A stretch of DNA of 64,000 nt from Escherichia coli. Its GTDB lineage: Bacteria > Pseudomonadota > Gammaproteobacteria > Enterobacterales > Enterobacteriaceae. Below, in pieces: positions 2,711 through 53,028 of this stretch; the first letter of the stretch is position 1, and each line of letters opens with the position of its first letter. Below the pieces are notes generated by a model. That model did not search any database. It was not told the origin of the DNA and saw only the letters and a list, made by a program, of their open reading frames with translations. Location: NCBI RefSeq assembly GCF_009931435.1, contig NZ_CP043414.1; one strand, 5' to 3'. The position numbers and the translations under genes were made by a program.

Positions 2711-3010
2711 TTATTCTGCTTTATCAACCGGCGGGATAGCCGGAGGAGATTGAAGTTCTGCTACCGGATTATTGCGCGCTTCCAGTTCGCTGATGCGTTG
2801 TTCCAGTAACGCCAGTTTTTCACGAGTCCGTAACAGGACTTGCGTCTGAACGTCGAATTCTTCGCGGCTTACCAGATCGAGACGCGTCAACTGCGCTTGT
2901 AGGGTTTGGCGGATTTTTTTCTCCACATCTTCCCCGAACTCCCTGATTCCTTTAGGCATTGATTCGTGAACCTGGCGAGCGATTTGCTCAATTTTTTTCG
3001 GGTCAATCAT
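2711..3010 (-). CDS. ubiK: Ubiquinone biosynthesis accessory factor UbiK (YqiC)
   Basis: ORF track frame; likely start [15 protein letters not shown]...; coiled-coil BMFP-type protein; divergent from ribB as in K-12. Confidence 0.8.
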
Positions 3011-3129
3011 TGTAGTTTCCCTGTACTGATAGGTGTTGAGTGCCATTGTAGTGCGATAAGGGTAAGTCATAAACCAGAATAATGTGAAGCTATGCGTTGC
3101 TGCCGCTAATCATTAGCGTTATAGTGAAT

Positions 3130-3290
3130 CCGCTTATTCTCAGGGCGGGGCGAAATTCCCCACCGGCGGTAAATCAACTCAGTTGAAAGCCCGCGAGCGC
3201 TTTGGGTGCGAACTCAAAGGACAGCAGATCCGGTGTAATTCCGGGGCCGACGGTTAGAGTCCGGATGGGAGAGAGTAACGATTCTGTCGG
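3130..3290 (+). promoter_or_regulatory. FMN riboswitch (RFN element / SroG) in ribB leader
   Basis: Conserved RFN motifs agggcggggcgaaattccccaccggcggtaaat ... cagcagatccggtgtaattccggggccgacggttagagtccggatgggagag directly upstream of ribB. Confidence 0.8.
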
Positions 3291-3383
3291 GCATGGACCC
3301 GCTCACGTTATTTTGGCTATATGCCGCCACTCCTAAGACTGCCCTGATTCTGGTAACCATAATTTTAGTGAGGTTTTTTTACC

Positions 3384-4037
3384 ATGAATCAGACGCTACT
3401 TTCCTCTTTTGGTACGCCTTTCGAACGTGTTGAAAATGCACTGGCTGCGCTGCGTGAAGGACGCGGTGTAATGGTGCTTGATGATGAAGACCGTGAAAAC
3501 GAAGGCGATATGATCTTCCCGGCAGAAACCATGACCGTTGAGCAGATGGCGCTGACCATTCGCCACGGTAGCGGTATTGTTTGCCTGTGCATCACTGAAG
3601 ATCGCCGTAAACAACTCGATCTGCCAATGATGGTAGAAAATAACACCAGCGCCTATGGCACCGGTTTTACCGTGACCATTGAAGCGGCTGAAGGGGTGAC
3701 TACCGGTGTTTCTGCCGCTGACCGTATTACGACCGTTCGTGCTGCGATTGCCGATGGCGCTAAACCTTCTGATCTGAATCGTCCTGGCCACGTTTTCCCA
3801 CTGCGCGCGCAGGCGGGTGGTGTGCTGACGCGTGGCGGCCATACCGAAGCGACTATTGATCTGATGACGCTGGCAGGCTTTAAACCAGCTGGTGTGTTGT
3901 GTGAGCTGACTAATGACGATGGCACGATGGCGCGTGCGCCAGAGTGCATTGAGTTTGCCAAGAAACACAATATGGCGCTCGTGACTATTGAAGACCTGGT
4001 GGCATACCGTCAGGCACATGAGCGTAAAGCTAGCTGA
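3384..4037 (+). CDS. ribB: 3,4-dihydroxy-2-butanone 4-phosphate synthase
   Basis: ORF track 217 aa; sequence recognised as RibB. Confidence 0.95.
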
Positions 4038-4071
4038 AAACCGCTGCTTAATTTACCGCGTTAATCAAGAA

Positions 4072-4104
4072 ACCGAAGCTATTACTGGCTTCGGTTTTTA
4101 TTTT
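4072..4104 (+). terminator. ribB intrinsic terminator
   Basis: Hairpin accgaagct...ggcttcggt followed by tttttatttt. Confidence 0.7.
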
Positions 4105-4299
4105 GCTCTTGTTATGCAAGATGTTAATTCCTCTTCTCTTTCTATGAGAAAATTTCATTAATATCAGGCATTCTTTTCCATTATGATCAAAATCATATAA
4201 TTGTTCCGTTATTATGCGACCATATGAATATATCCGAAAAAGGATATGTGAATTTTATGCGCTAAATGTTTAGTATTGTTAAATATTAAGGGTAAAAGG

Positions 4300-4470
4300 A
4301 TGTTTATCGCCTGGTACTGGATTGTATTGATTGCTCTGGTTGTGGTGGGTTATTTACTGCATTTGAAACGTTATTGTCGGGCGTTTCGTCAGGACAGAGA
4401 CGCACTGCTTGAAGCGCGGAATAAATACTTAAACAGTACGAGAGAAGAGACAGCCGAGAAGGTAGAATAG
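4300..4470 (+). CDS. Candidate small single-pass membrane protein (56 aa)
   Basis: ATG at 4300 preceded by SD aaaagga; hydrophobic helix FIAWYWIVLIALVVVGYLL followed by charged tail; terminator-like hairpin 4487..4517 downstream. Confidence 0.45.
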   Translation: MFIAWYWIVLIALVVVGYLLHLKRYCRAFRQDRDALLEARNKYLNSTREETAEKVE

Positions 4471-4527
4471 GGCTTTAGTGAAGCTGGCAGAAGTTGTCCA
4501 TGCGCTGGACAACTTCTGATGTTGCTT

Positions 4528-5301
4528 TTAACCAATTCCCGCCGTTTGTAGTAGCACTAAACTGAATCCCATCACTGACATTCCACATAGCACGCCATAG
4601 CTGGGGTTATTATTGGGGTCAATCTCTTTAGCTAGCGGCATTAATTCATCAACCGAGAGCGCCACCATAATTCCTGCAACCGCCGCCATGATTGCCGCCA
4701 TGACCACCGGAGAAATCATGCTACCGAGGATTAACCACGCCAGAACACCACCAAGAATTTCTGCCAGCCCAGAAATGCCCGCCCACAAAATTGCGGTGCG
4801 TTTTGACCCCGTTGCCGCGTAAACCGGCCCCGCAACTGCCAGACCTTCAGGAATATTATGCAATGCAACAGCCAGCGCGATGCCAAAGCCCAGCTCCAGG
4901 TTACTGCTCGCCGTGACAAAGGTGGCAATGCCTTCCGGGAAGTTATGCAGACTGATGCCGAGAGTGAGCAGAATGGCTGTGCGCTTGATCGATTTTGGCA
5001 ACGGCTGCACCGATTTTTGCATTAAATCCTGCGGATGCGCATGTGGCAACATGCGGTCCAGACCAAAATAGCCAAGCAGACCGAAGATAAACATTCCATA
5101 ACCCAGCACAGGCGACATTCCTTCGGCGGCTAATGCGGCAGGAAGCATTTCCATTAATGAGATGAGCAACATAATCCCCGCCGCAAATCCTAGCGAAAAC
5201 GCCAGTAAGCGGTTCGAGGGTTTTTGTCCGAGAACGCCGAGAAACGCGCCAATAAACGTGGCTGCCCCCGCCAGTATGGTCAGAATGAGAGGTACTGACA
5301 T
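4528..5301 (-). CDS. zupT: Zinc transporter ZupT (ZIP family), 257 aa
   Basis: ORF track frame; start chosen at [12 protein letters not shown]; processed length matches K-12 ZupT. Confidence 0.9.
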
Positions 5302-5443
5302 CGACAACTCCTTATAAATCTTTACCTTCAGGCAGATCGTCAAAATAACTGATGATCATCATCATTGTTATCCGGGTTCTTACTCCGCCGAACAAGCGTA
5401 TTGTGAGGATATCAAAATGACACCTTTAGTTAAGGATATCATC

Positions 5444-51328: not shown

Positions 51329-53028
51329 GCCAGAGAATTACTATTGATCCGGTAACCCGAATTGAAGGGCATTTACGCATCGATTGCGAAATCGAAAATG
51401 GCGTCGTTTCGAAAGCATGGGCTTCCGGTACCATGTGGCGCGGCATGGAAGAGATCGTGAAAAACCGCGATCCGCGCGATGCATGGATGATTGTGCAACG
51501 TATCTGTGGCGTATGCACCACCACTCACGCGCTCTCTTCCGTTCGTGCGGCAGAGAGTGCGCTGAATGTCGACGTTCCGGTTAACGCGCAATACATCCGT
51601 AACATCATTCTGGCTGCGCACACCACGCATGACCATATCGTTCATTTCTATCAGCTTTCGGCGCTGGACTGGGTGGACATCACTTCTGCACTGCAAGCTG
51701 ATCCAACCAAAGCCTCCGAAATGCTGAAAGGCGTTTCGACCTGGCATCTGAACAGCCCGGAAGAGTTCACCAAAGTTCAGAACAAGATCAAAGATCTGGT
51801 TGCCAGCGGTCAGTTGGGTATTTTCGCCAATGGCTACTGGGGTCACCCGGCAATGAAACTGCCGCCGGAAGTGAACCTGATTGCGGTAGCGCACTACCTG
51901 CAAGCGCTGGAGTGCCAGCGTGACGCTAACCGCGTCGTGGCGCTGCTGGGCGGTAAAACGCCGCACATTCAGAACCTGGCGGTAGGTGGTGTCGCGAACC
52001 CAATCAACCTCGACGGTTTGGGCGTGCTGAACCTTGAGCGCCTGATGTACATCAAGTCTTTCATCGACAAACTGAGCGACTTTGTTGAGCAGGTTTACAA
52101 GGTTGATACCGCGGTTATCGCCGCGTTCTATCCGGAATGGCTGGAGCGTGGTAAAGGTGCGGTGAACTACCTGAGCGTGCCGGAATTCCCGACCGACAGC
52201 AAAAACGGTAGCTTCCTGTTCCCGGGCGGCTACATTGAGAATGCGGATCTGTCCTCGTATCGTCCGATCACTTCCCATTCCGATGAATATCTGATCAAAG
52301 GGATTCAGGAAAGTGCGAAGCACTCCTGGTATAAAGACGAAGCGCCGCAGGCACCGTGGGAAGGTACCACCATTCCGGCTTACGACGGTTGGTCTGACGA
52401 CGGCAAATATTCCTGGGTGAAATCACCGACTTTCTACGGCAAAACGGTAGAAGTGGGTCCGCTGGCTAACATGCTGGTGAAACTGGCGTCAGGACGCGAG
52501 TCTACCCAGAACAAACTGAATGAAATCGTTGCGATTTATCAGAAACTGACTGGCAACACGCTGGAAGTGGCGCAGCTGCACTCCACGCTGGGCCGTATCA
52601 TTGGTCGTACCGTTCACTGCTGCGAATTGCAGGATATCCTGCAAAACCAATACAGTGCGCTGATCACCAATATCGGCAAAGGCGATCACACCACCTTTGT
52701 GAAACCGAACATTCCGGCAACGGGTGAGTTCAAAGGTGTTGGCTTCCTTGAAGCACCGCGCGGTATGCTCTCTCACTGGATGGTGATTAAAGACGGTATC
52801 ATCAGCAACTATCAGGCAGTTGTTCCATCAACCTGGAACTCTGGCCCGCGTAACTTCAATGATGACGTTGGTCCTTACGAGCAGTCGCTGGTGGGTACAC
52901 CGGTTGCCGATCCGAATAAACCGCTGGAAGTGGTGCGTACCATTCACTCCTTCGACCCGTGCATGGCCTGTGCGGTACACGTAGTGGATGCCGACGGCAA
53001 CGAAGTGGTTTCAGTGAAGGTTCTGTAA
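51325..53028 (+). CDS. hybC: Hydrogenase 2 large subunit
   Basis: ORF track 567 aa; N-terminal RICGVCTTTH and C-terminal DPCMACAVH Ni-binding motifs. Confidence 0.95.
   Translation: MSQRITIDPVTRIEGHLRIDCEIENGVVSKAWASGTMWRGMEEIVKNRDPRDAWMIVQRICGVCTTTHALSSVRAAESALNVDVPVNAQYIRNIILAAHTTHDHIVHFYQLSALDWVDITSALQADPTKASEMLKGVSTWHLNSPEEFTKVQNKIKDLVASGQLGIFANGYWGHPAMKLPPEVNLIAVAHYLQALECQRDANRVVALLGGKTPHIQNLAVGGVANPINLDGLGVLNLERLMYIKSFIDKLSDFVEQVYKVDTAVIAAFYPEWLERGKGAVNYLSVPEFPTDSKNGSFLFPGGYIENADLSSYRPITSHSDEYLIKGIQESAKHSWYKDEAPQAPWEGTTIPAYDGWSDDGKYSWVKSPTFYGKTVEVGPLANMLVKLASGRESTQNKLNEIVAIYQKLTGNTLEVAQLHSTLGRIIGRTVHCCELQDILQNQYSALITNIGKGDHTTFVKPNIPATGEFKGVGFLEAPRGMLSHWMVIKDGIISNYQAVVPSTWNSGPRNFNDDVGPYEQSLVGTPVADPNKPLEVVRTIHSFDPCMACAVHVVDADGNEVVSVKVL

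What the first reader, a model, noticed from the sequence alone, without database searches (positions are those of the whole stretch)
4300..4470. Small membrane-protein ORF between ribB and zupT
A 56-codon ORF with a good SD encodes one hydrophobic helix followed by a basic/acidic tail, and is flanked by hairpins. It has the architecture of the small membrane proteins often missed by annotation.
Basis: seen in the sequence. Interest (0 to 1): 0.3.

Follow-up and report, generated by a model that had tools for sequence, protein, structure and literature searches.

The report
Known small membrane protein gene yqiD
The 56-codon ORF is real, but it is the already named and experimentally detected E. 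coli small membrane protein gene yqiD; its function is still unknown, and the new point here is that an unassigned FNR (oxygen-sensor) binding peak from a 2013 study sits on its conserved promoter.

Summary
Observation confirmed: window 4300-4470 (+) is a 56-codon ORF with a conserved TAAGGGT Shine-Dalgarno. It lies between the ribB terminator (4068-4099) and a 13-bp hairpin shared with convergent zupT (4488-4518).

It is not new. It is yqiD (b4756), annotated "protein YqiD" in RefSeq. It was detected as a tagged protein and was positive in ribosome profiling (VanOrsdel 2018).

Across 28 species-level loci the ORF is intact. Codons 1-42 have dN/dS of 0.04-0.14 at saturated dS, and only this frame shows pN/pS well below 1. 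The last 14-16 codons drift freely.

Predicted protein: one N-out/C-in transmembrane helix, a conserved basic helix next to the membrane (KRYCRAFRQDRDALLEAR) and a variable tail. No family, structure or defence-system match was found. The family is confined to Enterobacteriaceae.

Added here:
- A near-invariant palindrome ATGATC(A/G)AAATCAT lies about 41 bp upstream of a predicted start site.
- It coincides with an unassigned FNR ChIP peak and an anaerobically enhanced sigma-70 peak in Myers 2013.
- yqiD stays tail-to-tail with zupT in every locus examined.

Function is unknown. My best guess is an accessory or regulatory subunit of a larger membrane protein, with ZupT as the leading but weakly supported candidate. 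Interest is low.

The parts
3384..4037 (+). [quoted passage not shown]
   Evidence: ORF list; RefSeq annotation of the identical strain. It is not stably linked to yqiD: insertions of 1 to more than 4 kb separate the two genes in many species and in 989 E. coli genomes.
   Evidence: Terminator scan; inverted repeat I2. It overlaps a sub-threshold Rfam STnc240 match.
4182..4197 (.). Conserved palindrome TATGAT-CAAA-ATCATA (core ATGATCAAAATCAT, 4183-4196); a probable FNR (CRP/FNR-family) site centred about 40-41 bp upstream of the predicted start site
   Evidence: One match in the window against 0.11 expected. Near-invariant at -108.5 to -111.5 from the ATG in 27 loci, even where the DNA further upstream is unrelated. 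It scores 11.2-12.4 bits on a matrix built from 62 ChIP-supported FNR sites and is the third-best hit in the 64-kb window. Myers 2013 report an FNR ChIP peak and a predicted FNR site at this place in K-12.
4215..4223 (+). Predicted extended -10 element TG-c-GACCAT; the start site is inferred at about 4230 (an A)
   Evidence: The columns TG, A(-11), A(-8) and T(-7) are conserved across genera. The K-12 sigma-70 ChIP peak centre maps to about window 4218-4227. The start site itself was not measured here.
4230..4247 (+). Hairpin ATATCC-N6-GGATAT at the 5' end of the predicted leader
   Evidence: Inverted repeat I9 and RNA fold. 80% of cells are paired in 20 species, 3 pairs show compensatory changes, and the structure does better than all slid controls. 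Support is modest.
4248..4299 (+). Conserved A/U-rich leader containing the Shine-Dalgarno TAAGGGT (4287-4293)
   Evidence: 76-82% identity between genera, against 54% at codon third positions and 47% at fourfold-degenerate sites. The reason for this constraint is unknown.
4300..4470 (+). yqiD coding sequence (56 codons plus TAG)
   Evidence: RefSeq WP_000469268.1 'protein YqiD'; K-12 b4756; protein detection; purifying selection.
4303..4365 (+). Residues 2-22: predicted transmembrane helix (FIAWYWIVLIALVVVGYLLHL)
   Evidence: Hydropathy 2.4-2.5; AlphaFold helix with pLDDT 84-90; I3, W5 and W7 nearly invariant family-wide.
4366..4425 (+). Residues 23-42: conserved basic juxtamembrane helix KRYCRAFRQDRDALLEARNK, predicted to be cytoplasmic
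   Evidence: A28, R30, R33 and A35 are invariant and R24 nearly invariant in 26 sequences down to 30% identity. Net charge +4. It is part of the low-dN/dS block.
4426..4467 (+). Residues 43-56: variable charged tail
   Evidence: dN/dS about 1 or higher between genera; length 14-18 residues; 25-62% charged residues; pLDDT about 53.
4488..4518 (.).
   Evidence: (dG -25 kcal/mol, z -3.2). Hairpins of different sequence occupy the same place in most orthologous loci. In species where the stop-to-stop gap is only 9-21 nt they are weak or absent.
4528..5301 (-). zupT (ZIP-family divalent metal importer), convergent neighbour
   Evidence: RefSeq annotation. It lies tail-to-tail with yqiD, about 10-75 nt apart or overlapping, in all 28 loci and in four distant-homologue loci.

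Best explanation
Identity (shown). The ORF is yqiD (b4756), a translated core gene of Escherichia, Citrobacter and Salmonella.

Protein architecture (shown by sequence, inferred for location). It encodes a 56-residue bitopic inner-membrane protein. Residues 2-22 span the membrane with the N-terminus at the periplasmic face. Residues 23-42 form a conserved arginine-rich helix on the cytoplasmic side. The last 14 residues are a freely evolving charged tail.

Transcription (partly shown, partly inferred). yqiD is transcribed on its own, between the ribB terminator and a hairpin shared with convergent zupT. The promoter appears to be an extended -10 type whose -35 region is occupied by a conserved FNR-type palindrome. 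The gene therefore has basal aerobic expression and is probably boosted by FNR when oxygen is absent.

Mechanism (inferred). Like other bacterial small membrane proteins, YqiD most likely acts by docking onto a larger membrane protein through its transmembrane helix and the conserved juxtamembrane helix, changing that partner's activity or stability. The partner is unknown. The neighbouring metal importer ZupT is the only candidate that the genomic evidence points to.
For: Identity and expression: RefSeq annotation at the same coordinates. SPA-tagged protein and ribosome-profiling signal in K-12. yqiD is listed among genes with NAD-capped transcripts.

Selection: intact ORF in 28 species-level loci. 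Codons 1-42 have dN/dS 0.04-0.14 at dS 1.2-1.9 against other genera. pN/pS is 0.136 in this frame only.

Architecture: hydropathy and charge distribution. A single AlphaFold helix, residues 2-55. Invariant A28, R30, R33 and A35.

Own transcription unit: the ribB terminator lies upstream. Insertions between ribB and yqiD stop just upstream of the palindrome.

FNR:
- The palindrome is conserved at a fixed distance in 27 loci and scores within the range of ChIP-supported FNR sites.
- Myers 2013 found an FNR ChIP-seq/ChIP-chip peak labelled '5' of zupT/ribB', called by all four peak callers.
- The same study predicted an FNR site overlapping the palindrome.
- It also reported a sigma-70 peak with 395 aerobic versus 1002 anaerobic reads, adjusted p 7e-83 (mapped).

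Partner idea: yqiD is tail-to-tail with zupT in 28 of 28 loci and in the distant Kosakonia and Phytobacter loci, while the ribB side is repeatedly broken.
Against: - No experiment addresses function, localisation, topology or partners.
- No match to any characterised family or structure.
- The zupT linkage may be passive. Only 9-74 nt separate the two stop codons, leaving little room for insertions, and zupT belongs to a conserved core block.
- zupT is reported to be constitutive and did not appear among the O2- or FNR-responsive operons in Myers 2013, so there is no sign of co-regulation.
- The start site is predicted, not measured. The palindrome has A where FNR prefers T at both outer positions (8 of 10 consensus bases) and fits CRP equally well by eye.
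- Myers 2013 listed the peak among those with no FNR-dependent expression change, although yqiD was not annotated then and so could not be scored.
- The protein is made aerobically in LB, so FNR is not required.
- Kosakonia and Phytobacter homologues lack the palindrome.
Confidence: 0.55

Rival explanations
1. YqiD works without a protein partner. It would be a membrane-anchored basic helix that acts on the lipid bilayer or on a cytoplasmic polyanion, for example anionic lipid domains, ribosomes or RNA at the membrane, during the shift to low oxygen.
For: The most conserved residues are arginines (R24, R30, R33) on a net +4 helix just below the membrane. No partner is known. The alanines at 28 and 35 could equally mediate self-association.
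Against: Simple lipid or polyanion binding rarely needs such exact sequence conservation: KRYCRAFRQDRDALLEAR is almost unchanged from Escherichia to Intestinirhabdus at saturated dS. The transmembrane segment is also conserved in sequence, not only in hydrophobicity (W5, W7, G17, Y18).
Confidence: 0.2
2. YqiD serves the flavin/quinone genes on its other side (ribB, ubiK) rather than zupT, for example as a membrane adaptor for quinone or flavin cofactor handling under changing oxygen.
For: ubiK, ribB and yqiD are adjacent in K-12, in the window and in the distant Kosakonia and Phytobacter loci. Myers 2013 also report an FNR peak at ribB, and O2-dependent expression of ribB and yqiC/ubiK.
Against: The ribB-yqiD junction is broken by 1 to more than 4 kb of unrelated DNA in many Citrobacter, Salmonella and Escherichia loci, and by a fimbrial operon in 989 E. 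coli genomes. A strong terminator separates ribB from yqiD.
Confidence: 0.08
3. YqiD is a type I toxin-like or holin-like peptide that damages the membrane when made, kept in check by RNA structure or antisense transcription from convergent zupT.
For: It is small, with one hydrophobic helix followed by a charged tail. It has a conserved, partly structured leader. Convergent transcription across a shared hairpin could give antisense RNA. There is a very weak Rz-like spanin hit at E = 0.13.
Against: It is a single-copy core gene, present in 5425 of 5426 complete E. coli genomes at one locus. The tagged protein accumulates in normally growing LB cultures. No promoter-like site lies antisense to the ORF. 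Leader folding is unremarkable, z = -1.6. The most conserved part is the cytoplasmic helix, which is not what pore formation would need.
Confidence: 0.05
4. The ORF is a chance or non-functional reading frame, or merely a regulatory upstream ORF, and the conserved thing is RNA or DNA rather than protein.
For: The leader and promoter are indeed conserved as nucleic acid. The last quarter of the ORF evolves neutrally.
Against: Codons 1-42 show pN/pS 0.136 with 37 of 42 third positions variable. The frame is kept in every locus despite saturated synonymous change. The protein has been detected. There is no co-directional downstream gene for an upstream ORF to regulate.
Confidence: 0.02

Closest known systems
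E. coli K-12 YqiD (b4756, YP_009518818.1); homologues are called 'DUF4051 domain-containing protein' by UniRef and NCBI
   Same: Identical at 55 of 56 residues (L19 here, F19 in K-12). Same position and orientation between ribB and zupT, with the same promoter and leader. RefSeq gives the window's exact allele the name YqiD.
   Different: Nothing of substance; this is the same gene. A second, deeply diverged allele class is present in 989 E. coli genomes and is annotated only as 'hypothetical protein'.
Characterised small inner-membrane regulators of transporters and sensors (AcrZ-AcrB, MgtS-MgtA/PitA, KdpF, MgrB-PhoQ, PmrR-LpxT); from general knowledge of the field
   Same: Size below about 60 residues, a single transmembrane helix, stress- or condition-linked transcription, and in several cases a gene next to the target's gene.
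   Different: No sequence similarity. No partner, phenotype or localisation is known for YqiD. Its long, strongly conserved cytoplasmic arginine-rich helix has no counterpart in those proteins. It is convergent with its candidate partner gene, not in the same operon.
Class II FNR-activated promoters (FNR site TTGAT-N4-ATCAA centred near -41.5, for example at narG, nirB, dmsA, yfiD)
   Same: An inverted repeat with TGAT-N4-ATCA cores. The centre is about 40-41 bp from the predicted start, with no separate -35 element. In K-12 there is in vivo FNR occupancy and higher anaerobic sigma-70 occupancy.
   Different: The outer bases are A/T instead of T/A, and the score lies at the low end of bound sites. 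The start site and FNR dependence of expression are untested. There is clear aerobic expression.
Type I toxins (Hok, Ldr, Ibs, TisB, ZorO families)
   Same: A small hydrophobic peptide with a conserved 5' leader.
   Different: Single copy and core. No antisense RNA gene found. Expressed without harm. A conserved cytoplasmic domain.

Membership tests
YqiD (b4756) orthologue | Sequence near-identical to K-12 YqiD | tested here: met
   55 of 56 residues identical to the sequence in Table 1 of VanOrsdel 2018. RefSeq names the identical protein WP_000469268.1 'protein YqiD'.
YqiD (b4756) orthologue | Same genomic position: downstream of ribB and convergent with zupT | tested here: met
   Window order is ribB 3384-4037 (+), yqiD 4300-4470 (+), zupT 4528-5301 (-). 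K-12 has the same order.
YqiD (b4756) orthologue | Translated into a stable protein | not testable with these tools
   Literature only: chromosomal SPA tag immunoblot and tetracycline ribosome profiling in K-12. Supported indirectly here by dN/dS.
DUF4051 (Pfam name used by UniRef/NCBI for homologues) | Match to the family profile above its threshold | tested here: inconclusive
   The Pfam-A copy available returned no DUF4051 model at all, only sub-threshold hits to unrelated DUFs, so the model seems to be absent from it. Homologues at 63-80% identity carry the DUF4051 name in their sources.
Single-pass (bitopic) inner-membrane small protein, N-out/C-in | One hydrophobic segment of about 20 residues | tested here: met
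   Kyte-Doolittle 19-residue mean of 2.4-2.5 for residues 1-20. AlphaFold helix with pLDDT 84-90 there.
Single-pass (bitopic) inner-membrane small protein, N-out/C-in | Positive-inside charge bias that fixes orientation | tested here: met
   No charged residue in 1-22, and 7 K/R within the 20 residues after the helix. The pattern is conserved in all homologues.
Single-pass (bitopic) inner-membrane small protein, N-out/C-in | Experimental membrane association and topology | not testable with these tools
   No fractionation or reporter-fusion data were found in the library.
Class II FNR-dependent promoter | FNR-type inverted repeat | tested here: met
   ATGATCAAAATCAT matches 8 of 10 consensus bases and scores 12.4 bits on a matrix from 62 ChIP-supported sites (training range 11.0-21.0), with p about 5e-5 among window 14-mers. 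It is conserved in 27 loci.
Class II FNR-dependent promoter | Site centred near -41.5 relative to the transcription start | tested here: inconclusive
   The start is only inferred (about 4230) from a conserved TG-n-nAnnAT element at 4215-4223. This would put the centre (4189.5) at about -40.5. The sigma-70 ChIP peak maps within about 10 nt of that element.
Class II FNR-dependent promoter | FNR occupies the site in vivo | not testable with these tools
   Literature: Myers 2013 Tables S5-S7 report a peak at 3181647 (U00096.2), called by MOSAiCS, NCIS, CisGenome and ChIP-chip. The palindrome in K-12 is identical to the window's.
Class II FNR-dependent promoter | Expression depends on FNR and anaerobiosis | not tested
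   Indirect only: sigma-70 occupancy of 395 (aerobic) versus 1002 (anaerobic) reads. yqiD was not annotated in that study's expression analysis.
Type I toxin-antitoxin | Cognate antisense RNA gene overlapping or adjacent | tested here: not met
   No promoter-like site on the minus strand within or just downstream of the ORF. No Rfam antitoxin or sRNA family there.
Type I toxin-antitoxin | Toxicity of the peptide | not testable with these tools
   Argued against by accumulation of the tagged protein in growing cultures.

The most novel reading that the evidence does not exclude
YqiD is an oxygen-responsive (FNR-boosted) accessory subunit of the neighbouring ZIP-family metal importer ZupT. It would bind ZupT through its transmembrane helix and conserved arginine-rich cytoplasmic helix and retune ZupT's activity, stability or metal preference (for example towards Fe2+ and away from toxic Co/Cd) when cells go anaerobic. 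ZupT is otherwise regarded as constitutive, so this would give it a post-translational regulator.
Probability: 0.15. Interest if true: 0.55.

Novelty: already known. Interest (0 to 1): 0.2.

Why it matters
As a gene discovery it does not matter: yqiD has been named, annotated and shown to be expressed since 2018.

What remains open is its function. The analysis here gives three concrete handles that I did not find stated in the searchable literature:
- Selection acts on the transmembrane helix and an R-x3-A-x-R-x2-R-x-A cytoplasmic helix, not on the tail.
- A published FNR ChIP peak labelled only "5' of zupT/ribB", together with its anaerobically enhanced sigma-70 peak, sits on the conserved yqiD promoter. 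This suggests yqiD is a previously unassigned FNR target.
- The gene never separates from zupT.

If YqiD turned out to modulate ZupT, it would add a metal-uptake example to the short list of small-protein transporter regulators. It would also explain how a constitutively transcribed importer is adjusted to anaerobiosis.

Tried and rejected
Family and structure searches:
- NCBIfam, Pfam, PHROGs, PADLOC and PDB-sequence searches gave only sub-threshold noise.
- Rfam over 3000-4700 found nothing in or around the ORF except the FMN riboswitch upstream of ribB and a weak STnc240-like hit on the ribB terminator.
- An exhaustive profile search of 1.8 billion representative proteins gave only 25 clusters, all the same narrow family, so no remote homology to a characterised protein emerged.
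- I did not run a fold search, because the model is a single helix.
- I did not run a fused ZupT-YqiD AlphaFold job, because the tool returns no inter-chain error or contact information.

Alternative readings of the sequence:
- TTG 4276 as start: rejected, because it is out of frame in other alleles.
- The -35/-10 pair TTAATA-18-TATGAT found by the scanner, which uses the left arm of the palindrome as a -10: considered less likely. Its -35 is not conserved, and it would not explain conservation of the right arm.
- The register reported by PatSer in Myers 2013 (TTGATCATAATGAA) is not conserved. It drops to 3.0 bits in this window because of a T-to-C change and is poor in Citrobacter. The palindromic register 6 bp away is the conserved one.
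- Fur-box reading: the half-sites resemble the Fur box, but the spacing differs by 3 bp. No Fur ChIP table was available.
- PhoP-box-like TGTTTA repeats and a CsrA-like GGA motif in the leader: wrong spacing, or not conserved in the C. freundii group.

Literature that could not be reached or did not help:
- Transcription start-site data: the Thomason 2015 paper is not held.
- No supplementary files are held for the NAD-RNA, Weaver 2019, VanOrsdel 2018 or Beauchene 2015 papers.
- Searches for yqiD, b4756 and DUF4051 found no functional study.
- The ZIP cryo-EM paper that mentions 'small membrane protein' is irrelevant to this question.

Full report
**What is at the coordinates**

Window 4300-4470 on the + strand reads ATG ... 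TAG, 56 codons plus stop. It encodes MFIAWYWIVLIALVVVGYLLHLKRYCRAFRQDRDALLEARNKYLNSTREETAEKVE.
- A TAAGGGT Shine-Dalgarno sits 7 nt upstream.
- Upstream lies ribB (3384-4037) with its intrinsic terminator at 4068-4099.
- Downstream lies a perfect 13-bp stem-loop at 4488-4518, then the stop codon of convergent zupT at 4528.
- The 200 bp between the ribB terminator and the ATG is AT-rich, 28-31% G+C.

**It is a known gene**

A megablast of 4040-4540 against 5,426 complete E. coli genomes hit 4,432 of them. RefSeq labels the ORF "yqiD: protein YqiD".
- In the one strain that is 100% identical over the stretch, the CDS maps exactly to window 4300-4470 (WP_000469268.1).
- K-12 MG1655 carries it as b4756.
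- VanOrsdel et al. 2018 (PMC6001520) tagged the chromosomal ORF with SPA and detected the protein in LB cultures. They named it yqiD and noted that it was also an unassigned positive in a tetracycline ribosome-profiling screen.
- Their sequence differs from the window's at one residue, F19 versus L19.
- A 2026 NAD-cap study lists b4756 yqiD among genes with NAD-capped transcripts.
- A 2025 preprint found that natural promoter variants of yqiD change its expression consistently across GWAS, a promoter model and a reporter assay.
- In enteroaggregative E. coli 042, a DUF4051-family ORF (orf3334) was more highly expressed in an aar mutant. It is very probably this gene, since the family is single-copy, but I did not verify this.
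- No paper in the library addresses function.

A protein search found 108 relatives in Escherichia, Citrobacter and Salmonella. A scan of one genome per species returned 27 loci. With the diverged E. coli allele, that makes 28 orthologous loci, all with an intact 56-60-codon ORF and a conserved ribosome-binding site.
- Against other genera, codons 1-42 give dN/dS of 0.04-0.14 while dS is saturated at 1.2-1.9. In that block, 37 of 42 third positions vary, against 20 first and 16 second positions.
- Averaged over 154 between-genus pairs, pN/pS is 0.136 in the annotated frame. It is 1.1-2.2 in four other frames and 0.29 in the antisense frame that shares wobble positions.
- The last 14-18 codons behave differently. 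Their dN/dS is about 1 or above, only length and charged character are retained, and net charge ranges from -3 to +1.

The protein-coding reading is therefore secure, and selection acts on the first three quarters of the protein.

**The protein**

- Residues 1-22 are uncharged and strongly hydrophobic. Seven Lys/Arg follow within 20 residues, which by the positive-inside rule puts the N-terminus outside and the C-terminus in the cytoplasm.
- AlphaFold2, with a 26-sequence alignment, gives one continuous helix over residues 2-55. pLDDT is 84-90 in the membrane segment, 63-75 in the next segment and about 53 in the tail.
- In an alignment reaching 30% identity (Kosakonia, Phytobacter, unclassified Enterobacter), the invariant residues are M1, A28, R30, R33 and A35. 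I3, W5, W7 and R24 are nearly invariant.
- H21 and C26 are conserved in the Escherichia-Citrobacter-Salmonella group but not beyond.
- No characterised family, solved structure, phage family or defence-system model matches.
- An exhaustive profile search of 1.8 billion representative proteins found only 25 clusters. The family is narrow and confined to Enterobacteriaceae.

**Genomic linkage**

In all 28 loci yqiD is tail-to-tail with zupT, with the stop codons 9-74 nt apart. The same holds for the distant homologues checked in Kosakonia and Phytobacter, where the two genes can even overlap by 18 nt.

The ribB side is unstable. Unrelated DNA of 1 to more than 4 kb separates ribB and yqiD in many Citrobacter, Salmonella and Escherichia species. 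In 989 complete E. coli genomes a four-gene chaperone-usher fimbrial operon is inserted there.

This is the only evidence that points to a partner. It is weak, because the short convergent spacer offers little room for insertions.

**Promoter**

Aligning the upstream regions shows that homology begins abruptly at a 16-bp palindrome, TATGATC(A/G)AAATCATA (window 4182-4197), whatever lies further upstream.
- It occurs once in the window, against 0.11 expected.
- Twenty-odd bases downstream is a conserved TG-n-nAnnAT element at 4215-4223, an extended -10. This predicts a start near 4230 and puts the palindrome centre at about -40.5, the geometry of class II CRP/FNR-family activation.
- I then found that Myers et al. 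2013 (PMC3688515) reported several features in K-12 at just this place:
  - an FNR ChIP peak labelled "5' of zupT/ribB", called by three ChIP-seq peak callers and by ChIP-chip;
  - a predicted FNR site, TTGATCATAATGAA, at the peak;
  - a sigma-70 ChIP peak with significantly higher anaerobic occupancy (395 versus 1002 reads).
- The peak was filed among those without an assigned operon, because yqiD was not annotated in 2013.
- Mapping through the K-12 sequence shows that their predicted site overlaps the left half of the palindrome. The sigma-70 peak centre falls at about window 4218-4227, on the predicted -10 and start.
- On a matrix I built from the 62 other ChIP-supported sites of their Table S6, the palindromic register scores 11.2-12.4 bits.
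  - This is at the low end of bound sites.
  - It is the third-best hit in the 64-kb window, with p about 5e-5.
  - It sits at a fixed -108.5 to -111.5 from the ATG in all 27 Escherichia, Citrobacter, Salmonella and Intestinirhabdus loci.
- The register reported by PatSer is not conserved and is lost in this window.

I conclude that yqiD very probably has its own FNR-bound promoter. Activation by FNR is inferred, not shown. The protein is also made aerobically.

**Leader and 3' end**

- The predicted 70-nt leader begins with a hairpin at 4230-4247 that has modest covariation support: 80% paired, three pairs with compensatory changes, better than slid controls.
- The 52 nt before the ATG are 76-82% identical between genera, against 54% at codon third positions. 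I cannot explain this constraint.
- The downstream hairpin is replaced by different sequences of similar structure in most species, and is weak or absent where the genes nearly abut. This is consistent with a shared bidirectional terminator.

**Mechanism**

Shown:
- a translated, selected gene;
- its architecture and promoter anatomy;
- in vivo FNR and sigma-70 occupancy in K-12, from the literature.

Inferred:
- membrane insertion with an N-out/C-in orientation;
- FNR enhancement of transcription;
- action by binding a larger membrane protein through the transmembrane and juxtamembrane helices, by analogy with AcrZ, MgtS, KdpF and MgrB (general knowledge of the field).

I rate the general modulator model at about 0.5, and ZupT as the partner at about 0.15-0.2. 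zupT itself is regarded as constitutive and is not O2- or FNR-responsive in Myers 2013. Regulation through a small protein would therefore make sense, but nothing tests it.

Rivals are a partner-independent lipid- or polyanion-binding helix, a role with ribB/ubiK, a type I toxin, and a non-coding reading. They are weighed in the rival-explanations section. The last two are contradicted by core single-copy status, harmless expression and the codon evidence.

**Verdict**

The residual value lies in linking an unassigned FNR peak to yqiD and in defining which residues are under selection. Interest is low (0.2).

Noticed in passing
window 4300-4470 and the ribB-yqiD spacer; loci L002, L035, L036: E. 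coli is dimorphic at this locus. 4,432 complete genomes carry the K-12/window-type yqiD. 989 carry a deeply diverged allele (dS above 1, 54% protein identity over the whole length by NG counts, named only 'hypothetical protein'). The diverged allele comes with a four-gene chaperone-usher fimbrial operon inserted between ribB and yqiD, while ZupT stays 100% identical. Protein P0013 looks like an intragenic recombinant of the two alleles.
   Followed up: partly
window 4248-4299: The yqiD leader is more conserved between genera (76-82% identity) than synonymous sites in the gene (54% at third positions, 47% at fourfold sites). No known RNA family, sRNA site or protein site explains it. GUAAAAGGAUGU over the start codon resembles the CsrA SELEX consensus as I recall it, but it is not kept in the C. 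freundii group.
   Followed up: partly
window 4036-4106 (+): The ribB 3' UTR and terminator give a full-length but sub-threshold match to the Salmonella sRNA family STnc240 (RF02074; 29.8 bits against a gathering score of 55; E = 0.06). This could indicate a 3'-UTR-derived sRNA.
   Followed up: no
locus L037 1499-2027: One metagenome-run contig encodes a ZupT(1-71)::YqiD-like(13-end) fusion, followed by the inverted 3' end of zupT. The junction lies at an 8-nt microhomology (GATGTTCG). It is either a real inversion between the two convergent genes or a chimeric assembly.
   Followed up: partly
window 15512-15525 and 52042-52055: These are the two best matches in the window to the FNR matrix built from Myers 2013 sites: TTGAGTTGCATCAA (15.6 bits) and CTGATGTACATCAA (14.0 bits). 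Their gene context was not examined.
   Followed up: no
window 5352-5365: ATGATCATCATCAT lies in the divergent zupT/ygiD promoter region. It is a weak FNR-matrix hit (9.9 bits) that also looks Fur-box-like. zupT is reported to be constitutive.
   Followed up: no
window 3132-3280 (+): An FMN riboswitch lies upstream of ribB (RF00050, 120.9 bits), as expected for this locus.
   Followed up: yes
loci L030-L032 and L038, upstream of the yqiD homologues: Kosakonia, Phytobacter and one unnamed metagenome homologue lack the FNR-type palindrome. Three of the four loci instead share a different conserved element (CTACTTATAAAGTGGTAG), which suggests a different regulator in that branch.
   Followed up: no
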